In this document: positions 3-11,038 of the stretch, one piece after another
How the letters are laid out: each line of letters begins with the position of its first letter
Numbering within the stretch: position 1 is the stretch's first letter
NCBI GenBank assembly: GCA_965248195.1
Contig: CBDFIQ010000002.1
Coordinates: 192,001-256,000 of the forward strand
Direction: 5' to 3'
DNA length: 64,000 bases
Source: Longimicrobiales bacterium
Lineage (GTDB): Bacteria > Gemmatimonadota > Gemmatimonadetes > Longimicrobiales > Gaopeijiaceae
Program-made: the position numbers and the translations under genes
The notes under the pieces: generated by a model
The model's input: the letters and a program-made list of their open reading frames with translations, nothing else
What the model was told of the DNA's origin: nothing
Database searches by the model: none

Positions 3-1292
3 TTAGCCTGCCTTTCTCATTTCGGCAACCGGTTCATGGTCGTCGAGGTGGGCCCTGAGCATCCAGAGCTGGTCGTAGCCGATGATCCTCCGGTAGCTCT
101 TCTCGGTCTCCACGAACGAGGCCGCAGCCCAGCGCAAGGCCATCGCTCCGTTCTTCCAGTTGGTCACCCTGCGGGTCTTCTGTCTTACGCCCGAGTGGGT
201 GCTGTCGATCAGGTTGGTCGAGCCCAGGCACTTCCTCAGCCGCGGCGGGAGGCCGAGCCGGTTGATCGTGAACATCTCGCTGAGGCCTTCGCGTAGGCTG
301 GCCGAGGCCGAGGGGTGGTCGCGCTCGAGCCATCGGGCGAGCTGCTCGAGCTTCTGCTCGCCCTGCTTCGCGTCCAGCTTCATCGCCGCCCGGAACGCCG
401 CCTTCACCTGAGGATGCTGATCCTTCGGCAGATGACCCAGCACGTTGCGGAGCTTGTGGTTGCGGCAGCGCTGGATGGGGTGACGTTGGCCGAACACCTT
501 CTCGATCGCCTTCCTGAGCGCTTTCGAGCCATCGATCACGAACAGCCGCCGCCTGCCCGGGTCCAGGCCGCGCTCGACCAGATCCTCTAGGAGCGCGCTG
601 GTCACCTCGGCGTTCTCACTCGCTCCTTCCCTCACGCCCAGCACGTGCTTCTTTCCGTCTGAGTCCACGCCTACCGCAGCAAGCACGTGGTGCGAGCCCA
701 TCTGGATCCCGTCCAGGTAGATCACCAGGAGGTCCCACGCATCCAGCCGGCGCTCCATCAGCTCCTTCAGCACGCGCTCCGAGGCCTCGACCGTCTCACG
801 GCTCACCGCCGACTTGCTCACCCCGACCGTGTCGGCCATCTCACCGATCACACGGCCGTACTTCCGCGTGCTCACCCCCGCCATCAGGACCTCGAGCATC
901 CGATCCGCCACGGCGCCCGGTCTCCGCATCGCTGCGTACGCCGGCACCTCGACCTCGCCACCCTCCCCGGCGCCCCGGCGCCTGAGCCGTGGCCGCTCCA
1001 CACGCACCTTCCGGTCCGACAGGTAAACCACACCACCCTGCCGGCCATACCACACCGTGTCGTCTTCCGCTCGTGACCGACCTGCCTGCTTCACGCCTGC
1101 CACACCCTCGGCGCTCATCTCCAGCACCGCTTCGATCGTCGCTCGTCCCATCACCTGGATGACTTCGTCGATCGCGACCTCCGTCTGCTCCACGAGCTCA
1201 AGCATCGGAAGCAGAAACTGCCCCTCCCGCTTCAGGAACTCCCTGATCGCGCGCTTGTCCGCCCGATCCCTTACCTCGTACGTTCTCTTCAT
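3..1292 (-). CDS. IS256 family (Mutator-like DDE) transposase
   Basis: 429 aa. Motifs GVSTR, GVSKSAVSR, YLDG, FVIDG, QRCRNHKLRN, STNLIDS. Confidence 0.95.
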   Translation of the reverse strand: MKRTYEVRDRADKRAIREFLKREGQFLLPMLELVEQTEVAIDEVIQVMGRATIEAVLEMSAEGVAGVKQAGRSRAEDDTVWYGRQGGVVYLSDRKVRVERPRLRRRGAGEGGEVEVPAYAAMRRPGAVADRMLEVLMAGVSTRKYGRVIGEMADTVGVSKSAVSRETVEASERVLKELMERRLDAWDLLVIYLDGIQMGSHHVLAAVGVDSDGKKHVLGVREGASENAEVTSALLEDLVERGLDPGRRRLFVIDGSKALRKAIEKVFGQRHPIQRCRNHKLRNVLGHLPKDQHPQVKAAFRAAMKLDAKQGEQKLEQLARWLERDHPSASASLREGLSEMFTINRLGLPPRLRKCLGSTNLIDSTHSGVRQKTRRVTNWKNGAMALRWAAASFVETEKSYRRIIGYDQLWMLRAHLDDHEPVAEMRKAG

Positions 1293-2757: not shown

Positions 2758-3946
2758 CTACACCACAGCGGGCGGGGCCACGAACTCCTGGTCCAAGGTG
2801 CGCAGCAGGCCGACCTCGGCGTTCATCTCTCGGCTTAGGACCAGATGGTCCTCCTTGGCTTCATCCAGATCCCACTCGAACGAGGCGATGTGGTCCGTGA
2901 CGTCGAGCAGACCCTTCACCAGGCCGTCCCGGGTTTCTTGATAACCGGCTAACGCGCCCTCACCGCCGTCCACCACGGCCCGGGCTAGAAGCTCGGCGTC
3001 ACGCAGGGCATCGGTGATCCCGTGCGCGGTAATGGGATCCTTGAAGTAGCCTGCGTCACCGACCAGAGTCCATCCAGGTCCGGAAGCGCGTCGGAGGAAG
3101 CCGGTCGTGCCCGCGAAAGCTCGCAGCTTGCCGGAGGCCTCGCTTGCGTTGACGCTGCGCGCCAGTTCGCGAGACTTCGCTCAGCACGGCGTGGTAAAGG
3201 GCGTCGAGGCCATTCCTTCGCTCCTCTTCGAAGCGAGTCGGCGGAAGCGAAGCGAAGACGCACGTATCCCCATCATTCGTCGGGATGGATCCCACGGCGC
3301 CGCCTATGTTGTAGAGCCAGTGGAATCCCTCCCACCCCAGATCTTTCCAGTAGCCGTAGATGGAGGCGGTCGTGTGGAGGACGGTGTAGTCGAGCTCGGC
3401 TTCCAGAATCCGTGCGACGCGCGATCGGACACCGTCGGCCCCGATGACGAGATCGGCGGCCACATCGATCACGTGTTGGTCGGCTCCGGCGATGTTCGCA
3501 CCGCGGATGCGGCCGTGGGAATCCCGAAGGACATCGACGACGGAGTAGCCGTAGATCACCTCGGCACCGGCTGCCAGAGCGGCGTCGCAAAGTATCGTGT
3601 CCAGGACGGTCCGACGCGGAGCATACAACCCGTCTACATCGTCCCGCTCCTTGATCGAGACTTCGATGGCCTCCTCACCGTAATGGAAGGTGGTCGTCCG
3701 GATGGTGGGGGTCTCGGCCGCCCGGATCGCATCCAGCAGGCCCCAGCGGTGCAGTTGGAGCACGCCGCCCCGCATGAGCGCGTGGGTCGACAAGGTGTCG
3801 CTGCCTCGGCTGGTAGGGTCGACCACGAGGACCCGCATCCCCTGACGGGCGAGGAGCATCGCGGTGGACGCGCCCGCGCATCGCGCGCCGGCGATGACAA
3901 CGTCATAGCGGTTCCGCGTGATCGGCGACTGCACGGTGGAGGCCAT
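2758..3946 (-). CDS. NAD(P)/FAD-dependent oxidoreductase (geranylgeranyl reductase/monooxygenase-like), frameshifted near 3170
   Basis: N-part has YDVVIAGARCAG and VIGADG. Another frame continues ELARSVNASEASGKLRAFAGTTGFLRRASGPGWTLVGDAGYFKDPITAHGITDALRDAELL to a stop at 2758. Confidence 0.85.
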
Positions 3947-4002: not shown

Positions 4003-4722
4003 TCAGCCCGGCGTCCTGTCCCGAGTCGGGTCGGATCCCTGGGGAACGGGCCGCGCATTGGGCCGTCGGTCGGGACCCCCGGGTCTCCCGTCGTGGCGCA
4101 CGCGGCGGAGTGACACACCATCCCTCATGGCCCGGAGCATTTGTCCTGCGGCGTCCGGGGCCAGAGCCCCCTCACGCACCAGTCGGCGCAGTGCGGTGGG
4201 TACGTCGAGCAAGCCCTCCTCGCCGGTGGTCCTCACGAACGCTTCCCGCATCACCTCCATGGCCCGTCCCGCGGAAACCCCGGCATCCAGCAGATCGCCC
4301 ATGACCACGAGCGCCATGGGTGTCCGTGTGCCCGCTTCTCGCCCGATCGACGTCAGGGCGTCCGCCGCGACTCCGCGACGCAGGGCGTCGGCCCCGGCCA
4401 CGACCCATGCCGCATCAGGGGTGCCGCCCAGGAGGCCCTGAGCCCGCTGCATCCGTCCCGAAAACTCTCGGAGCGCCGGCATGACCCGTGCGGCGGGGAC
4501 CCGCTTCGCGGCCCCTTCGAGCGCCTTGTCGTACAGAGGGCCGACCGGAACTCCGTTGCGCCCGGCCTGCTCCACGACAGCTTCGATCTGTGCCGCCGCC
4601 TCGAGGGAGTAGGCCTGCCGGAGGCGGGCCACCTGATCCTGTGCGAGCAGAGCGTTCGCCGAGCTAGCGGCCAAAACCGCCGCCAGGATGAGGCTTCTCT
4701 TTACCGTCATTTCGTAAATCAT
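4003..4722 (-). CDS. Exported all-helical hypothetical protein, last gene of the ECF operon
   Basis: RBS AAGGGGG before ATG 4722. Signal peptide (KRSLILAAVLAASSANALLA-Q). Motif PLYDKALEGAAKRVP. Basic Pro-rich tail. Confidence 0.8.
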   Translation of the reverse strand: MIYEMTVKRSLILAAVLAASSANALLAQDQVARLRQAYSLEAAAQIEAVVEQAGRNGVPVGPLYDKALEGAAKRVPAARVMPALREFSGRMQRAQGLLGGTPDAAWVVAGADALRRGVAADALTSIGREAGTRTPMALVVMGDLLDAGVSAGRAMEVMREAFVRTTGEEGLLDVPTALRRLVREGALAPDAAGQMLRAMRDGVSLRRVRHDGRPGGPDRRPNARPVPQGSDPTRDRTPG

Positions 4723-4736
4723 CTTGAGTCCCCCCT

Positions 4737-5919
4737 TCACGGGACAACGATTGTAGCGTTCATCTGTCCCCAGTCGTCGCTCACTTGACCCGGGGCCCCC
4801 TCCGGCACGAACCACTCACCGTCGACCAGGAAGCCGAAGTGGTACGTACCGGCCGCCAACGGAATCTCCAGGACCCACGCCCGACCATCTTGGACCATGG
4901 CTTGGGGCTCCCAGCCCGAGAAATCACCTAGGACCTCTATGCGTTGAAGCAGGCCGGTCTTCCACACGGAATTGGGCCGCGGCTCCTCCTGACGTCGACC
5001 GTAACGCCACCACCGGTGTCGCCCCGCGCGGACCGAACCGGACCAGACGGCGACCGATGACCAGGCCTCCCTGTCCACCGGGCTCGCTTCGCACCAGCGG
5101 ATCCGGGTCGGTGCGGCCGCCCACCAACCGGGCGAACCAGTTGGGACCACCCAGCGGCAACGTCACCGAGATGATTCCCGTGGTTTCGCTTCCCAGCGGC
5201 GTGTCCCACACGCTGAGGGTGGCTGTGATGAGGGAACGGTCCGTGCCGGCGCGGACCTGGAGCTCGCTCCTTCGATACGTCCCGGTCTCCGTCTCCAGGA
5301 CGCCATAGGACGCCGACGTCAGCGTCCTTCCGAGCCGTAACTGCAGCTCGGGCCCCCAACCGTGGTGCCAGAGGTCTTGTGAGAACACCCTCACCGCATC
5401 AAGCCGTCGCAGCTCGACCGTGGACGTTCCCTTGCCTCCCTCGCCATAAAGGACGATGGCGACCGGTCCCACGGGAATGCGCACTTCTGGCCGCGCCACC
5501 ATGGTCAGAGCCTGATAGGTGTACGGCTCGCCGACGGCAAAGCCGTACATGGACGCCGACAAGCTGAGCTGGACCGGTCCACCCGCACCGGTCACCGCCT
5601 CTCCGCCGAGAGCGAAGCTCCCCCAATCCCCGCCTATGGCGCCGGTGGTCATCCCTCCGAAGACGCCCGCGAAGACCCCACTTCCCGAGGGCGTCCAGCG
5701 ATCCACCTGCAGCCCGGCCGTGAGGTAGGTCGCGGCCGGGATGTCGGTGCCCGACGGGGCAAATGCTCGGGAGCCCCCGACCTCGATGCGCACCTCACCC
5801 CCCTGGCCGAACGCACCGGCAGGGCGCAATGCGAGCGCCAGGAGAATCGCTCCCGCCGTCCGGCTGAAACATGCCCCGAGGGCGAGGCGGGCTCCGCGGG
5901 CGGAGGGTCGGGTACGCAT
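4737..5919 (-). CDS. Exported beta-strand-rich (putative outer-membrane) protein with C-terminal CBM48/AMPK-type glycogen-binding domain; 1-nt frameshift at ~4947
   Basis: Signal peptide and alternating beta-strand pattern in ORF 4924..6015. Removing one T from GCT-T-CAA joins it to QRIEVLGDFSGWEP...YHFGFLVDGEWFVP...DDWGQMNATIVVP. Confidence 0.8.
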
Positions 5920-5921
5920 GC

Positions 5922-6536
5922 TCACAGCGTCGTCGGCGGAGCGACGGCCAAGACGGCGTTTTGGTTGCCGAAGCCGTCGTCCGCGTAGCGCTGGGCTCCG
6001 GGATCGGTGACCCAATCGGTGCCGTCGATGACGAACATGTACTTGTGGAGGCCGGGCGTGATCGGGACTCGTCCGGTCCAGATCCCATCGCCATCAGCGT
6101 CCTCGAGGACGAAGTCGCTCTCCCATCCACTGAAGTCACCGGCCACGGCAACCGTCGTGGCTCCGGGGGCTTCGAGGGAAAACTCCACCAGGATCTCGGT
6201 GACGGCGACGGGCCCGAGCTGCTGCTCGACCGGTGTTCTGTTCGGTAACAGCACGACCACGGCTACGGCCGCAGCGGCCATGGCCAGGCTCGTCAGCGGG
6301 GAGAGACGGATGTTGCGCGGCCTGAGCAGCCAGTCGAAAACGCTCTCCCTGGGTGCGCTGGCCAACGCGATCTCGCTCATGACCGCATTCTCCATCCATG
6401 GCGGGGCCTGTTTCGGCTCGTCGGCCTTCATCTCTCCGGTGAGCCTTCGCCAGGCTTCAGCCTCGGCCTGAGCTTCGGGGCTGAGCTCTTCAAGCTCCCG
6501 TTCCCCGTCCATGTAGTCATTCAGTTCATTGTTCAT
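5922..6536 (-). CDS. Putative anti-sigma factor: N-terminal cytoplasmic domain, one TM helix, C-terminal CBM48/AMPK-type glycogen-binding domain
   Basis: Start overlaps the sigma stop (ATGA). N-terminal LNDYMDGE is anti-sigma-like. TM LAMAAAAVAVVVLL. CBM48 motifs VAVAGDFSGW, YMFVIDGTDWVTDP, DDGFGNQNAVL. Confidence 0.85.
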   Translation of the reverse strand: MNNELNDYMDGERELEELSPEAQAEAEAWRRLTGEMKADEPKQAPPWMENAVMSEIALASAPRESVFDWLLRPRNIRLSPLTSLAMAAAAVAVVVLLPNRTPVEQQLGPVAVTEILVEFSLEAPGATTVAVAGDFSGWESDFVLEDADGDGIWTGRVPITPGLHKYMFVIDGTDWVTDPGAQRYADDGFGNQNAVLAVAPPTTL

Positions 6537-7097
6537 TGGTACACCTTCAACAATGTCTGCAGCTCGTCTCGAGCGCGTAGCACCCTCATTTTCAGAGCCG
6601 ACTTAGAGGCGCCCAGCAGGGTGGCCATCTCGCCGTACGATCGGCCTTCCAAGTGCTTCAACACAAAGGCCTCACGCTGTTCAGGGCTCAGCCTCTCCAA
6701 CGCCTGCTGAACCCGGTCCCTCAACTCCTCTCGCTCCAGGTCCGCGTCCGGCCTCGACCCTTTTCGCCTCTCGAGGGCCAATGCCAGCTTTGCCGACGCT
6801 CCCTCTAGCGAGAGGTCGGCCCTGCGTGGACTCTTCAAGAAATCCTTACAGAGGTTCGCGGCGATCCGGAAGAGCCAGCCACCCACCCACCCGTTCGGGG
6901 TCACGGCAGCGATTCAGCTTCTGAAAGCCGCTCACCAGGGTCTTCTGCACGATGTCGGACGCGTCGTCCGGCTGGCCCACCATCCGGTAGGCGTGTCTGT
7001 ACAGAACATCCTGATACCGGCGGACCAGCACGCGATACATCTCGTGCCGCCCACCCAGGACCTCCCGGACCACCTCGCCGTCGCTGAGTTCTTCCAT
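6533..7097 (-). CDS. ECF (sigma-70 group 4) sigma factor, interrupted by a 4-nt repeat-unit frameshift at 6881-6892
   Basis: Region 2 (LVRRYQDVLYRHAYRMVG..DASDIVQ...WLFRIAANLCKD) is split over two frames. Region 4 LSPEQREAFVLKHLEGRSYGEMA..LKMRVLRAR. Confidence 0.9.
6873..6892 (-). repeat. (GGGT)3(GGCT)2 tetranucleotide microsatellite in the ECF sigma gene
   Basis: Plus strand reads agccagcc acccacccaccc. Loss of one GGGT unit restores ...R V G G W L F R I... Confidence 0.8.
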
Positions 7098-7133
7098 TGA
7101 CATTAAGAGAAAGTTACCGGGACCTCATACGTA

Positions 7134-7163
7134 AGACGAGGGAAACGTGCCGGGGGTCACATT
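7134..7163 (-). promoter_or_regulatory. Predicted autoregulatory ECF promoter (GTGACC-N16-CGTC) of the sigma operon
   Basis: Minus strand AATGTGACCC-ccg-GCAC-gtt-TCCCTCGTCT, 24/30 identical to 8454-8483. Confidence 0.75.
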
Positions 7164-7216
7164 CGTTTTCGGGGCGGGAGACGGACGGTGCACCCGAACG
7201 CCCCTGGGGAGGTTGG

Positions 7217-7262
7217 GAAACGGCGAACGCCGGAGGGGCTTTTCGCCCCCCCGGCGCTGCCG
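7217..7262 (-). terminator. GC-rich hairpin, probable terminator of the lipoprotein gene
   Basis: Minus strand CGGCAGCGCCGGGGGGCG-AAAA-GCCCCTCCGGCGTTCGCCG followed by TTT, ~50 bp after the stop at 7313. Confidence 0.65.
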
Positions 7263-7312
7263 GTGGCGTCGGATGGTCGACGACACTGTGCCGCTCTCGG
7301 CGATATGCGGCT

Positions 7313-8404
7313 TCAGCCGACGATTACCGCTCCAACGACTGCGGCTCTCCAGATCAGCTGGATGCCTCTCGGATGGCCGTTCTCTATGTGCTTGACACCG
7401 GTTTCGAATGCGGCTACGGCCCGTGTCAGCAACTTCTCGAAGAACTCGTTGGGGTTGAGCTCCAACGCAGCCCTGGCGGCCTCGAGCTCGGTTTTGGCCA
7501 GGTCGATGAGGACCTGGAACTCTGAGCTGGCCACATCGGTGAGGGCACGGATTCTGTCATCCGTCACCCGATCAGGCCGGATCACCGCAGTCAGCGACAC
7601 GCTCACGGCCTTGTGGCCGAAGATGATGGCCCGTCGGAAGTGACCGTTCTGGAAGGCTTCCGCAGACGCCGCAGCCAGGCGCGCGGCCGTGTCCAAGAGG
7701 TGCTGCTGGCGCTCGCTGATGTCCGTCCCGCTCAGGAGACGGTTCGCGAGCTCGACCGCCTTGTCGGCCATAGCTACCACCAACCGGGCCCCCTTCTCCG
7801 GATCGGCGTCATGACGCCTGACACGGCTCCGGTCGGTGCGCCGATGCGCATCGATGACCCGCTTACCCGCGGTCACGTCGTCGCCGCGATCGCGTGCGTC
7901 CGTCGCGTCGTCCAAGAACCGATCGACGTCTCTCGCCAAATCACTGGGTCGATCGAAGTCGTCAGTATCACCCGCCGCGAGCAGCCGGCGCACGTCCCGT
8001 ACACGATCGATGAAGTCGTCCAGGCTGGAGCGGTCCCGTCCCTTCGCAAGAGCCCGGCCCAGCGCGTCCCGCGCCCGGTCGCCGAGCGAACGAACCCGCT
8101 CATAATCGCCCCGCGTCAGCTCGACGCGGGCCTCGTTGAATAAGCTATCGGCCGTAAAGATCTCGACGGAGGCCGCGGCCGTCATGTTGGCACTCATGGA
8201 GCTGGATACGTCTTGGATGAGGGCCGCGGTCAGATCGGGATCTGTAGCCATCTCGATCTGCACGTCCTCCATCGGAGGTATTTCGTCGAAGCCCAGATCG
8301 CTGGGCGTATCGGTGCACCCGCTGACGAAGAGTGCTCCCCATAAGAGGAAGATCAACATCAGGAATCCGGTGGCTCCGTTGCTGGAAGCTGGCGCTCTGT
8401 ACAT
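7313..8404 (-). CDS. Hypothetical alpha-helical lipoprotein, probable target of the ECF sigma
   Basis: RBS AAGGAGAG. Hydrophobic leader with lipobox FVSG-C. Repeated helical-hairpin-like segments. Same promoter motif as the sigma gene. Confidence 0.8.
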   Translation of the reverse strand: MYRAPASSNGATGFLMLIFLLWGALFVSGCTDTPSDLGFDEIPPMEDVQIEMATDPDLTAALIQDVSSSMSANMTAAASVEIFTADSLFNEARVELTRGDYERVRSLGDRARDALGRALAKGRDRSSLDDFIDRVRDVRRLLAAGDTDDFDRPSDLARDVDRFLDDATDARDRGDDVTAGKRVIDAHRRTDRSRVRRHDADPEKGARLVVAMADKAVELANRLLSGTDISERQQHLLDTAARLAAASAEAFQNGHFRRAIIFGHKAVSVSLTAVIRPDRVTDDRIRALTDVASSEFQVLIDLAKTELEAARAALELNPNEFFEKLLTRAVAAFETGVKHIENGHPRGIQLIWRAAVVGAVIVG

Positions 8405-8453
8405 GGTTCTCTCCTTAAAAAAGCAGTGTGTTTCCGAATCGAGGCTGGGAACT

Positions 8454-8483
8454 AGACGAGGGAGGGGTGCTAAGGGTCACATT
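8454..8483 (-). promoter_or_regulatory. Second copy of the GTGACC-N16-CGTC ECF promoter
   Basis: Minus strand AATGTGACCC-tta-GCAC-ccc-TCCCTCGTCT, ~50 bp upstream of ATG 8404. Confidence 0.75.
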
Positions 8484-8516: not shown

Positions 8517-8563
8517 GTTGAGCGGTGCTCGGATCCTCCATGTTGAGCGGTGCTGGGATCCTC
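8517..8563. repeat. 22-bp direct repeat x2 (period 25) in a divergent intergenic region
   Basis: GTTGAGCGGTGCTCGGATCCTC at 8517-8538 and GTTGAGCGGTGCTGGGATCCTC at 8542-8563 (1 mismatch). Confidence 0.85.
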
Positions 8564-8632
8564 AGCCCCCGTCGGGGTATTGGCTTATCGCGGCGACACG
8601 CTTCTTCACCCACTGATACGTACAGGCCGATC

Positions 8633-11038
8633 ATGTCCACGCCTTCACCGATAGAAGAGTTTCCGTTCGGGACCCGCCTGAGCCTGGCGCACCTCGTCGA
8701 TTTCTGGGAGCGCCAGGACGGGGACCCGAGCTCATTACATGCGCCCCTGGCCCGGGTGATCGTCGAGCAGCTCGAAGAAGCTTCGGAGCTCAGAGGGATC
8801 ATCGACGACGACGCGGTGCTGGACAAACACCGGGAGCTCATCGACCTCATGATGACCGCCATGGTCCCGGCGGGTCGGCGCGAGGACTATTACGCCGCGG
8901 CCGGCGAACCCTTCAAGACACTCTCCCGCTGTTTCTACGAGACGCCGGCGTGGCGGCGGCTAGGGCTTGGCGAGGCCGAGCGCGTCAAGCATCAGCTCAA
9001 CATGGCGCCGGAGCAGTTCGCCTTTGGAAAGCTCATGTGGGCCTACGAGTTTCTGCTCCAGGAGTGGGTGGGCGTCGAGGCGAATCTACAGCCCGGCCTC
9101 GTCATGACCGTACACGACGAGGAGGTCGGGCTGGACAGGCACTTCTCGTTGGACGTCGACCCTCGCTTCACGTCCGTGAGGCTCGTTCGGGACATCGAGA
9201 AGCCGTCCTCGGAGGATGTCGCACGCCTGCTGGCCGAGCCCACTGACATCGACCTCTGGACCGAGGTGCTCCCTCCGGATGCCTTCGAGTTCGATGGCAT
9301 GACGGTGATCACGGCAGTGGACGTCACGCCCCACGAGGTGATCTCGCGACTCAAGAACGACCTCATCGAGAAGGATTCGATGGCGTCACCCGAGAAGATC
9401 GATCGGCTCCAGCATCAGCTCCGTAATCTCCTGGGTTGCCCCGAGCTCAGCCTCGGGCTGATCGCCTTCGACCGGCGGGCCGACGTCGAGGCGATCGAGG
9501 GGGCGAGGGCCGTGGGCAAGAGCCTGCTCCTCTGCGACGAGTGCGCCCCCACCTGCCCGAACCGGGCCAACTCCAGCTATGCGGGAATCTTCGAAGGCAC
9601 GGACCCCGTCATCGTTCAAGACCTTAAGACGTCGGAGTTACGCACCGGCTACGAACACCATCTGCGGAAGCACAGGCACCGTAGTCTCCTTCTCTACCCG
9701 CTCCACGCCGGCGACCAACTGGTCGGGCTCATGGAGCTCGCGTCGCCCAGGCCGGGAGACCTCAACGCCTTCAACGCCCGGCGACTGGCGGATGTCGTTC
9801 CGCTCTTCGCCACCACACTCAAGCACAACCAGGACGAGCTCGAGGATCATGTGCAGGCGGTCATCAAGCGGAAGTACACGGCGATCCACTCGTCTGTCGA
9901 GTGGCGTTTCCGCGATGCCGCCTTGCGTTACCTGGAGGAAAAGGAGAGCGGTGAGGTGAGCCCCGAGCTCGAGCAGATCGTCTTCCATGACGTGTACCCG
10001 CTCTACGGGCTGGTCGACATGCGCGACTCGTCGCGGATACGGAACGAAGCGATTCGGGGGGACCTCAGCGAACAACTCCAACTGGCTCTGGACGTGATCA
10101 ATGCCGCCGGGCAGATACGACCGCTTCTCGCGCTGGAAGAGGTGGGATACCGACTGGCGCAGCATCTCGACCGGATCGAATCCGAGCTCCGCTCAGACGA
10201 CGAATCAGGCATCTTGGAGCTCCTCCGGCGTGACGTGGAGCCGCTATTTGGGCAACTCGACACCTATGGGAGTGATGTGGCGGAGCGCGTGACCTCCTAT
10301 CGCGGGGCGCTCGACGCGGAACTGCAGCTCGTCTATCGCCGCCGCAAGGAATTCGAGCAGAGCGTGGCGGCTTTGAACGACGCCATTTCGATGACGCTGG
10401 ACGCGGAGGAGGAGCGGGCCCAGACCATGTTCCCCCACTTCTTCGAGAAGTTCAGGACGGATGGGGTGGACCACAGTATCTACATCGGCGCTGAGCTCCA
10501 CGAGGACGGGCTGTTCGATGAGCTCTATCTGCGTAATCTCCGGATCTGGCAACTCATGACGACCTGCCGGATCGAGTGGGAGCTCGCCCGGGTCAAGACC
10601 GACATGCCCGTTCCCCTCGAAGCGACCCACCTGATCCTCGTCCAGCATCAGCCGCTCTCGATCCGCTTCCGCATCGACGAGAAGCGCTTCGACGTGGACG
10701 GGGCGTACGACATCCGCTACGAGATCGTCAAGAAGCGCATCGACAAGGCGCGGGTCCGAGGGTCGAGCGAACGCATAACCCAGCCGGGGCAGCTCGCCAT
10801 CGTGTACTCGACGGCCGGTGAGGCTGCCGAGTACAGGAGATACATCGAGTTCCTTCAAAGCAGGGGCTACTTCTCCCCAGGGCTGGAGGAGCTCGAGCTG
10901 GAGGACCTCCCGGGCATCTCCGGGCTCAGGGCGCTGCGAGTCACCATCGCGAGCAGGGGCAAGGCCGACCAGTCGGCCCTGCCGGCTCGACCCTCAGAGG
11001 GCGAGATCGAGGCGGTCCTCACCGGAGAGCAGGCCTAA
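8633..11038 (+). CDS. Large GAF-domain protein of unknown function
   Basis: Central GAF (RSLLLYPLHAGDQLVGLMELAS). Conserved-looking blocks TAIHSSVEWRF, VYPLYG..D, FPHFFEKFRTDGV, FRIDEKRFDVDGAYDIRYEIVKKRIDKA. Confidence 0.8.
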   Translation: MSTPSPIEEFPFGTRLSLAHLVDFWERQDGDPSSLHAPLARVIVEQLEEASELRGIIDDDAVLDKHRELIDLMMTAMVPAGRREDYYAAAGEPFKTLSRCFYETPAWRRLGLGEAERVKHQLNMAPEQFAFGKLMWAYEFLLQEWVGVEANLQPGLVMTVHDEEVGLDRHFSLDVDPRFTSVRLVRDIEKPSSEDVARLLAEPTDIDLWTEVLPPDAFEFDGMTVITAVDVTPHEVISRLKNDLIEKDSMASPEKIDRLQHQLRNLLGCPELSLGLIAFDRRADVEAIEGARAVGKSLLLCDECAPTCPNRANSSYAGIFEGTDPVIVQDLKTSELRTGYEHHLRKHRHRSLLLYPLHAGDQLVGLMELASPRPGDLNAFNARRLADVVPLFATTLKHNQDELEDHVQAVIKRKYTAIHSSVEWRFRDAALRYLEEKESGEVSPELEQIVFHDVYPLYGLVDMRDSSRIRNEAIRGDLSEQLQLALDVINAAGQIRPLLALEEVGYRLAQHLDRIESELRSDDESGILELLRRDVEPLFGQLDTYGSDVAERVTSYRGALDAELQLVYRRRKEFEQSVAALNDAISMTLDAEEERAQTMFPHFFEKFRTDGVDHSIYIGAELHEDGLFDELYLRNLRIWQLMTTCRIEWELARVKTDMPVPLEATHLILVQHQPLSIRFRIDEKRFDVDGAYDIRYEIVKKRIDKARVRGSSERITQPGQLAIVYSTAGEAAEYRRYIEFLQSRGYFSPGLEELELEDLPGISGLRALRVTIASRGKADQSALPARPSEGEIEAVLTGEQA

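What the first reader, a model, noticed from the sequence alone, without database searches (positions are those of the whole stretch)
4003..8483. Candidate glucan-sensing ECF system: sigma, CBM48 anti-sigma, CBM48-bearing outer-membrane-like protein and co-regulated lipoprotein
Seen: a tightly coupled minus-strand operon. It encodes an ECF sigma (7097-6533), a one-TM protein with an outward-facing AMPK-beta-type CBM48 (6536-5922), an exported beta-strand protein with a second CBM48 (5919-4737) and an exported helical protein (4722-4003). Both CBMs keep the GDFxxW, DG.W and DD.G..N residues. A helical lipoprotein gene upstream shares the promoter motif. Known: CBM48/AMPK domains bind alpha-glucans, and ECF anti-sigmas sense through their extracytoplasmic domain. 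Inference: an envelope signalling relay with no TonB receptor and no glycosidase in the operon, in which two glycogen-binding modules sense periplasmic maltodextrin or glucan (or pair with each other) to release the sigma. I know of no characterised anti-sigma with a CBM48 sensor.
Basis: partly seen in the sequence, partly recalled or inferred. Interest (0 to 1): 0.85.

Follow-up and report, generated by a model that had tools for sequence, protein, structure and literature searches.

The report
ECF switch with protein-gripping CBM48 domains
This is a real, widespread bacterial envelope-signalling operon whose membrane sensor carries a glycogen-binding-type domain that is predicted to grip a dedicated secreted protein rather than a sugar, but the copy in this genome is likely broken.

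Summary
The genes, both CBM48-like domains and the shared promoter motif are real. The module is disrupted in 7 of the 10 closest genomes, so this copy is probably decaying.

The helical protein occurs in 189 of 301 genomes of the phylum, and a CBM48 gene lay beside it in 100 of 100 loci checked. The second CBM hangs on a predicted 14-stranded outer-membrane barrel.

Glucan sensing is weakly supported. The AMPK Lys126 equivalent is missing in 111 of 111 anti-sigma and 32 of 32 barrel domains, and 31 of 50 module-bearing family genomes, this one included, show no GH13 domain. A complex prediction (0.90, best control 0.00) puts the helical protein's conserved EGxxK motif on the sugar-binding face.

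Best reading: an RseA/RseB-like cap, with an outer-membrane decoy site, switching on lipoprotein genes. A glycogen-site anti-sigma was already noted computationally as ECF278s1; membership could not be tested. The scan found this module before on other DNA (at least 11 notes, one with this reading).

The parts
8454..8481 (-). Predicted ECF promoter 1 (GTGAC, 17 nt, CGTCT) in front of the lipoprotein gene
   Evidence: (matrix score 26.4); same place in G011, G006, G004, G019, G022 and G005
7313..8404 (-). 363-aa lipoprotein, probably helical, family-restricted; likely output of the sigma
   Evidence: Signal-like segment ending VSGC; Cys30 invariant in 7 homologs; 32 of 121 family genomes, 31 of them with the helical protein; no family at cut-off
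7134..7161 (-). Predicted ECF promoter 2 in front of the sigma operon (autoregulation)
   Evidence: (score 26.9, best in the genome)
6533..7103 (-). ECF sigma factor gene, frameshifted by 4 extra bases near 6879-6890 (85-aa product, region 2 only)
   Evidence: Pfam r2 and r4 in different frames; intact in G011 and G004; no second sigma of this clade in the genome
5922..6536 (-). 204-aa one-pass anti-sigma-like protein: N-terminal anti-sigma-like domain, membrane helix 78-96, outward AMPK1_CBM/CBM48 domain
   Evidence: aligns end to end (probability 99.9) with an Atribacteria protein that has zf-HC2 plus AMPK1_CBM; 1028 homologs at E<=0.001
4737..5919 (-). Predicted 14-stranded outer-membrane beta-barrel with a C-terminal CBM48-like domain; 1 extra base near 4947 cuts off the CBM in this copy
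   Evidence: AlphaFold2 model of the intact G004 copy, pLDDT 92.5; closest folds CymA Z 19.0 and OmpG Z 17.5; frameshift
4003..4722 (-). 239-aa secreted all-helical protein with a conserved EGxxK motif (E69, G70, K73) and a low-complexity tail; predicted to clamp the CBM
   Evidence: Model pLDDT 93.7; complex prediction; motif counts; 189 of 301 phylum genomes

Best explanation
This is a five-gene ECF sigma module in which a secreted helical protein is predicted to cap the outward CBM48-like domain of a one-pass anti-sigma factor and likely keeps the sigma off, while a second CBM anchored in the outer membrane likely competes for that cap; the copy in this genome carries two frameshifts and is probably inactive.

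Shown: the genes, domains, frameshifts, co-occurrence and promoter motif.

Predicted: the barrel fold; binding of the helical protein to the anti-sigma CBM, with its Lys73 against Trp138, Trp175, Asp187 and Phe189, the surface that binds sugar in AMPK.

Inferred (my odds):
- The 204-aa protein holds the sigma (0.9).
- The barrel CBM binds the same helical protein (0.7).
- The cap is inhibitory, as RseB is on RseA (0.6).
- The trigger is the state of the envelope, that is how much cap the outer-membrane site takes up or how much is lost, and not alpha-glucan (0.6).
- Uncapping leads to membrane proteolysis of the anti-sigma; the freed sigma then transcribes its own operon, the cap (feedback) and a variable secreted lipoprotein.
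For: Complex prediction: score 0.90, best of 3 controls 0.00. That mark was reached by 116 of 157 solved complexes and 2 of 215 mismatched pairs (the counts hold only roughly, as my own alignments were used); runs agree in at least 95% of contacts; partner pLDDT 93. The helical protein has no Foldseek match at E<=0.001, so a pass from memory of a solved complex is unlikely.
The predicted contact residues are conserved: E69 172 of 183, G70 179 of 183, K73 173 of 183; CBM Trp138 339 of 339, Asp187 289 of 332.
The Lys126 equivalent, whose mutation abolishes glycogen binding in AMPK (PMC6274970, passage), is Lys in 0 of 111 anti-sigma and 0 of 32 barrel CBMs.
Co-occurrence: 100 of 100 loci picked by the helical gene hold a CBM, 99 a sigma, 86 two CBMs; 11 have one helical gene after each CBM. 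24 of 24 long-enough metagenome loci picked by the anti-sigma hold the helical gene.
The anchor of the second CBM varies: this barrel, other long secreted proteins, or a small lipoprotein-like protein in Nitrospira. The barrel lumen is no more conserved than its lipid face (entropy 2.72 against 2.70; CBM 1.76).
The promoter motif follows the genes through rearrangements: 137 hits in 201 loci against 42 in reversed sequence, 78 leading into module genes, 18 of them straight into the helical gene; the largest group of other targets (11 hits) are DUF4382-type lipoproteins.
None of 121 flanking ORFs hit a GH13, SusC/D or TonB family at E<=1e-8. No PF00128 match in this genome, 13 of 14 controls ring. 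An RseP homolog is present.
Decay: 7 of the 10 closest genomes are disrupted by different lesions, against 2 of 19 more distant family members.
Against: No binding, cleavage or transcription was measured. Only one pair could be modelled, so barrel-CBM binding and sigma binding are untested. The aromatic clamp (W100, W133 equivalents) and often the N150 equivalent (96 of 111 anti-sigmas) are kept, so weak glucan binding remains possible. GH13 domains are commoner in module-bearing family genomes (19 of 50) than in the rest (11 of 71), though kin are not independent. The predicted interface as a whole is only slightly more conserved than the rest (entropy 1.69 against 1.81; 2.15 against 2.34). 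The nearest barrel fold is the cyclodextrin channel CymA (9% identity). 14 of 100 loci show no second CBM, so the decoy is not obligatory. Nothing here fixes the sign of the cap's effect.
Confidence: 0.48

Rival explanations
1. Glucan sensor by displacement: alpha-glucan enters through the barrel, competes with the helical cap for the CBM groove, and frees the sigma.
For: W100, W133, G147 and mostly N150 equivalents are kept; the cap is predicted on the sugar face, so competition would follow; CymA and OmpG are the nearest barrel folds; GH13 in 19 of 50 module genomes against 11 of 71.
Against: Lys126 equivalent lost in all 143 anti-sigma and barrel CBMs; intact modules in near-complete genomes with no GH13 match, e.g. 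G349, G405 and G004; no glucan genes among flanks or promoter targets; up to six helical-gene copies per genome, nearly all checked ones with their own sigma and CBM; some CBM48 domains bind no starch (PMC8040265, passages).
Confidence: 0.22
2. The helical protein is an activator or a bridge: it is parked on the outer-membrane CBM and switches the sigma on when it reaches the anti-sigma CBM, or an oligomer of it links the two membranes.
For: The same co-occurrence and complex prediction; both CBMs keep the contact residues.
Against: A separate sigma-type promoter before the helical gene in 18 hits fits negative feedback better; the model shows one binding face per molecule; modules without a second CBM exist.
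Confidence: 0.2
3. The two CBMs pair with each other across the periplasm, and the helical protein is only an output.
For: Two CBMs in 86 of 100 loci; CBM48 domains contact each other in a CE1 dimer (PMC8040265, passage).
Against: The helical gene, not the second CBM, is the constant partner; complex prediction. CBM-CBM pairing was not modelled.
Confidence: 0.05
4. On the state of this copy only: the two frameshifts are assembly errors and the module works in this organism.
For: The sigma insertion is in a short repeat; no contig of the window's own strain was laid across it; contigs of related strains lack both insertions.
Against: Background disruption is about 2-5 of 172 orthologs, so two hits in five genes is unlikely (p about 0.001-0.008). 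The neighbouring oxidoreductase shift is spanned by zero-difference contigs in runs X1 and X2, and the depth left at 4947 (about 8 and 10) matches the own strain. Close relatives carry different stops, shifts and deletions.
Confidence: 0.3

Closest known systems
ECF278 subgroup s1 (Casas-Pastor et al. 2021, PMC7826278; supplement passages read)
   Same: Putative one-pass anti-sigma at +1 with the AMPK glycogen recognition site in the periplasm; -35 element GTGAC.
   Different: Described from Desulfovibrio and Syntrophobacter, by prediction only, with -10 GTATA (here CGTCT). The paragraph mentions no second CBM, barrel, helical partner or lipoprotein, and proposes glycogen sensing.
E. coli sigmaE-RseA-RseB (recalled, no call)
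   Same: Works like it in my best reading: one-pass anti-sigma, a secreted partner from the same operon that caps its periplasmic part, autoregulation, and an RseP homolog in the genome.
   Different: The sensor domain is a folded CBM48 and the cap is an all-helical protein with no close solved fold; a second docking site sits on an outer-membrane protein.
SigI/RsgI of Clostridium thermocellum (search listing and abstract starts only)
   Same: Membrane anti-sigma factors with outward polysaccharide-sensing modules.
   Different: Those use SigI-type sigmas, control cellulosome genes and depend on an autoproteolytic periplasmic domain. Here no carbohydrate enzymes are among the flanks or predicted targets.
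AMPK beta-subunit CBM48 (PDB 2f15, 1z0m; PMC2642990 and PMC6274970, passages)
   Same: Same fold and the W100, W133 and G147 positions.
   Different: K126 is replaced by A/M/S/V/G, L146 by F/W/M, T148 is not kept, and an Asp precedes the hairpin tip.
CymA and OmpG, 14-stranded monomeric porins
   Same: Barrel size and fold (Z 19.0, rmsd 3.7, 244 aligned; Z 17.5, rmsd 4.1, 228 aligned).
   Different: 7-9% identity, no conserved lumen, and a C-terminal CBM; channel activity untested.

Membership tests
ECF278 (s1) | Sigma scores best against the ECF278 group model | not testable with these tools
   The group models are not held and no Desulfovibrio or Syntrophobacter locus was obtained.
ECF278 (s1) | One-pass anti-sigma in position +1 | tested here: met
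ECF278 (s1) | AMPK glycogen recognition site outside the membrane | tested here: met
   PF16561 over cut-off after the membrane helix.
ECF278 (s1) | Promoter -35 GTGAC | tested here: met
ECF278 (s1) | Promoter -10 GTATA | tested here: not met
   Here CGTCT(A/T); GTCTA differs from GTATA at one place.
ECF25 (holds Gemmatimonadetes and Nitrospirae subgroups) | Promoter GGAAC / GTC; anti-sigma with zinc domain, DUF4384 or DUF4349 | tested here: not met
   The motif is GTGAC / CGTC and the anti-sigma ends in AMPK1_CBM; group model not available.
ECF sigma factor | Regions 2 and 4 only | tested here: met
   In two frames in this copy; one frame in G011 and G004.
Class I anti-sigma factor | N-terminal anti-sigma domain that binds the sigma | tested here: inconclusive
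   Homologous end to end to a zf-HC2 protein but without its Cys/His; NF052375 far below cut-off; binding not modelled.
Glycogen-binding CBM48 (AMPK type) | Fold and profile match | tested here: met
Glycogen-binding CBM48 (AMPK type) | Binding residues W100, K126, W133, L146, T148 | tested here: not met
   W100 and W133 kept; K126 absent in 111 of 111 and 32 of 32; T148 mostly absent.
Glycogen-binding CBM48 (AMPK type) | Measured alpha-glucan binding | not testable with these tools
   Needs a binding assay.
FecI/FecR/TonB cell-surface signalling | FecR anti-sigma and TonB-dependent receptor in the locus | tested here: not met
   No FecR match; barrel has 14 strands and no plug domain; none in 121 flanking ORFs.

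The most novel reading that the evidence does not exclude
A multi-phylum envelope-monitoring switch in which a starch-binding fold has become a lysine-binding dock. A secreted helical clamp shuttles between an inner-membrane anti-sigma and an outer-membrane decoy (barrel or lipoprotein), so the cell reads outer-membrane assembly as a partner switch and answers with lipoprotein production.
Probability: 0.3. Interest if true: 0.82.

Novelty: new variant of a known kind. Interest (0 to 1): 0.6.

Why it matters
The helical protein that marks the module is in about 6 of 10 genomes of the phylum sampled (labelled Gemmatimonadota by the named homologs), often in several copies, and related loci occur in Nitrospira, Atribacteria and Balneolaceae. 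Its parts are annotated as 'glycoside hydrolase family 13' or 'isoamylase early set domain' proteins, which misleads carbohydrate-use predictions. If the model holds, it is a new way to cap an anti-sigma factor, a case of a sugar-binding fold turned into a protein dock, and a revision of the glycogen-sensing proposal for ECF278-like groups. The central prediction needs only two small soluble proteins to test. This genome's copy is a poor choice for the bench; the intact G004 or G011 copies or a cultured Nitrospira are better.

Tried and rejected
Covariation between 157 paired CBM and helical sequences (effective number 128): 0 of the top 10, 1 of 20 and 5 of 50 pairs fell in the predicted interface (base rate 5%; shuffles 0-2 of 50). 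Inconclusive.

Anchoring to ECF278: the genome scan gave 1 locus, plasmids none, and 80 metagenome loci, 20 cluster look-ups and a homolog search gave no Desulfovibrio or Syntrophobacter name.

Fold of the helical protein: no Foldseek match at E<=0.001; best VIA Z 9.3 to a designed protein, which is within the range common for helical repeats. This is not proof of a new fold.

Lipoprotein: no Pfam or NCBIfam family at cut-off, no solved homolog at E<0.01, Atlas hits below 0.9, and no relation to the helical protein (probability 0.4). It was not folded.

Wider regulon in this genome: rejected. Only two sites score above 20.0; the third lies inside a coding region. The matrix was trained on sites from relatives, including close ones. 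No sigma-70 promoter was found. NF052375 is not specific.

Reads: no own-strain contig covered the sigma insertion, so that lesion is unconfirmed.

Literature: 'anti-sigma + ECF + CBM48' gave 1 unrelated paper; 'ECF278' (19), 'anti-sigma + glycogen recognition site' (38), 'anti-sigma factor + AMPK1_CBM' (85), 'Gemmatimonadota + ECF sigma + anti-sigma' (86) and a four-term search gave 0. Subscription papers are not covered. The ECF supplement was cut when stored and I saw passages only; its tables could bear on group membership.
Full report
OBSERVATION. Pfam confirms sigma regions 2 and 4 and two AMPK1_CBM domains over cut-off; the helical protein and lipoprotein match nothing at cut-off. The promoter-like motif TGTGACC-N14-CTCGTCT occurs exactly twice in the window, before the lipoprotein and before the sigma; no shuffle of 100 gave two. 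Two of the genes are not open frames. The sigma has four extra bases in a GGGT repeat near 6879-6890 and stops after 85 residues; the barrel gene has one extra base near 4947 and loses its CBM.

IS THIS COPY ALIVE? Probably not (about 0.7). Of 172 orthologs compared with G005, 3 were flagged as shifted and 16 as holding stops; on inspection most stops were shadow frames or extensions, leaving about 2-5 real lesions. Two hits in five genes is unlikely at that rate (p about 0.001-0.008). In runs X1 and X2 (one sample, possibly the source) zero-difference contigs span the shift in the neighbouring oxidoreductase, and the depth that keeps the extra base at 4947 matches the own strain; the sigma insertion was not covered by own-strain contigs. 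Among the ten closest genomes, seven are disrupted in different ways: G000, G006 (stop in sigma, shift in lipoprotein), G356 (stop in anti-sigma), G381 (stop in barrel), G389 (shift in barrel), G343 and G005 (deletions). G004, G011 and G404 are intact. Only 2 of 19 more distant family members show lesions. Some of these may be assembly errors; G006 has several shifts nearby. No second sigma of this clade and no second copy of the other genes exists in the genome.

CONSERVATION. The anti-sigma query matched in 27 of 41 related genomes, a few of them only through other CBM48 domains. The helical protein is in 189 of 301 phylum genomes (the tally includes one unpublished genome, G191) and 50 of 121 family genomes. 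I fetched 100 loci around listed helical-gene matches, chosen from the best-scoring rows: all 100 hold a CBM gene, 99 a sigma (the exception ends at a contig edge), 86 two CBMs, and 11 have a helical gene after each CBM. Of 80 metagenome loci found with the anti-sigma, 52 show the helical gene, and all 24 that were long enough do. Named members include Nitrospira, Atribacteria and Balneolaceae. In a tree of 62 of 149 module sigmas and 18 other ECF sigmas of this genome, the module sigmas form one side of a branch (93/85, just under the tool's starred level). The second CBM sits on this barrel, on other long secreted proteins, or on a small lipoprotein-like protein.

STRUCTURE. The intact G004 barrel protein folds with pLDDT 92.5 into 14 long strands and a C-terminal CBM; an even strand count puts the CBM in the periplasm (inference). 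The nearest folds are CymA (Z 19.0, rmsd 3.7, 244 aligned, 9% identity) and OmpG (Z 17.5); the CBM is closest to that of the feruloyl esterase wtsFae1B (Z 14.0), a CBM48 type reported to lack starch binding (PMC8040265, passages). The lumen is rich in Gly, Ser, Arg and Ala and no more conserved than the lipid face. The helical protein folds with pLDDT 93.7 into nine helices with no close solved relative.

SUGAR OR PROTEIN? AMPK binds glycogen through W100, K126, W133, L146 and T148 (PMC2642990, passage); W100G and K126Q abolish binding (PMC6274970, passage). By the alignment and the spacing of those residues, they map to W138, M167, W175, F189 and N191. W138 is invariant, but the K126 position is Lys in 0 of 111 anti-sigma and 0 of 32 barrel domains, whereas the four solved structures aligned keep Lys or Arg there. 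The one complex job, anti-sigma CBM with mature helical protein, scored 0.90 against a best control of 0.00; the mark was reached by 116 of 157 solved complexes and 2 of 215 mismatched pairs (rough here, own alignments), runs agree in at least 95% of contacts, partner pLDDT 93. The best contacts join W138, W175, D187 and F189 to the EGxxK motif (E69, G70, K73), which is nearly invariant. A lysine entering an aromatic groove next to an Asp would explain why K126 is lost; that reading is my inference. The barrel CBM keeps the same surface (W332 134 of 134, D377 133 of 133). Covariation analysis neither supported nor opposed the contact. I chose this pair after seeing earlier scan notes that stressed the helical partner.

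GENOMIC CONTEXT. None of 121 flanking ORFs from 40 loci hit a GH13, SusC/D or TonB family at E<=1e-8; DUF4382 recurred eight times. This genome has no PF00128 match (91.8% complete). In the family, 31 of 50 module genomes have none at E<=1e-10, including intact modules in G349 and G405; GH13 is still commoner with the module (19 of 50) than without (11 of 71). The promoter motif moves with the genes when their order changes and stays in loci whose sigma is not nearby. Over 201 loci it gave 137 hits against 42 in reversed sequence; 78 lead into module genes and the largest group of other targets are lipoproteins. Nitrospirota-type loci use GTAAC / CGTCT. In this genome only the two local sites stand out.

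MECHANISM. Most likely (0.48 for the whole chain) the helical protein caps the anti-sigma CBM and keeps the sigma off; the outer-membrane CBM competes for the cap; uncapping allows proteolysis (an RseP homolog is present); the sigma then transcribes its operon, more cap, and a lineage-specific lipoprotein. Rivals: glucan displaces the cap (0.22); the helical protein activates or bridges (0.2); CBM-CBM pairing (0.05). The signal and the sign are inferred, not shown.

KNOWN SYSTEMS AND NOVELTY. The supplement of Casas-Pastor et al. 2021 describes ECF278s1 with the same anti-sigma design and -35 element and proposes glycogen sensing; I read passages only, and the main text has no 'glycogen'. The -10 element differs and the group model could not be run, so I do not file it as a member; it works like, and may be related to, ECF278s1. 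The RseA/RseB comparison is recalled. Six searches found no paper on this module. The cap, the decoy and the loss of the sugar lysine appear undescribed.

VERDICT. A real, widespread, uncharacterised variant of the one-pass anti-sigma scheme, with a sharp and cheap test; glucan sensing is the weaker reading, and this copy is probably decaying. Interest 0.6.

Noticed in passing
window 3958 to about 2750, minus strand: FAD-dependent oxidoreductase gene right after the module is frameshifted near 3150; the shift is present in zero-difference contigs of runs X1 and X2, and G011 appears to have a different 2-base loss a few bases away.
   Followed up: partly
window 3-1292, minus strand: 429-aa ORF that looks like an IS256-type transposase (label recalled, not scanned); it interrupts synteny with G005.
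   Followed up: no
window about 6800-6770, minus strand: The sigma has an in-frame 6-residue insertion between regions 2 and 4, shared with G006 but not G011 or G004.
   Followed up: no
L032, L033, L035, L038, L133: Modules with no sigma gene in the locus that still keep the promoter motif before the anti-sigma and before the helical gene; the sigma may lie elsewhere.
   Followed up: no
L039, L069, L082, L158, L165, L171, L177: DUF4382 lipoproteins sit next to the module, several behind the same promoter motif, in the slot that the helical lipoprotein fills here.
   Followed up: partly
L062 (G005:C1 about 1955000-1956500): G005 keeps both promoters and an intact lipoprotein gene but has lost sigma through the oxidoreductase in one 4.8-kb deletion.
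   Followed up: yes
G000:C2:2402782-2403900: A gene that looks like a PilT-type ATPase (label recalled) has an in-frame stop in this genome.
   Followed up: no
G000:C2 277229, 279463, 2713418, 2994744: Four identical 32-base sites scored weakly on the promoter matrix; probably the ends of a repeated element.
   Followed up: no
window 8525-11038, plus strand: 837-aa GAF-domain protein transcribed away from the lipoprotein promoter; a neighbour in G005 and G006 only among the loci checked.
   Followed up: no
L086 and L088: Variant in which the barrel gene is short or damaged and small secreted Gly-rich proteins follow the promoter motif.
   Followed up: no
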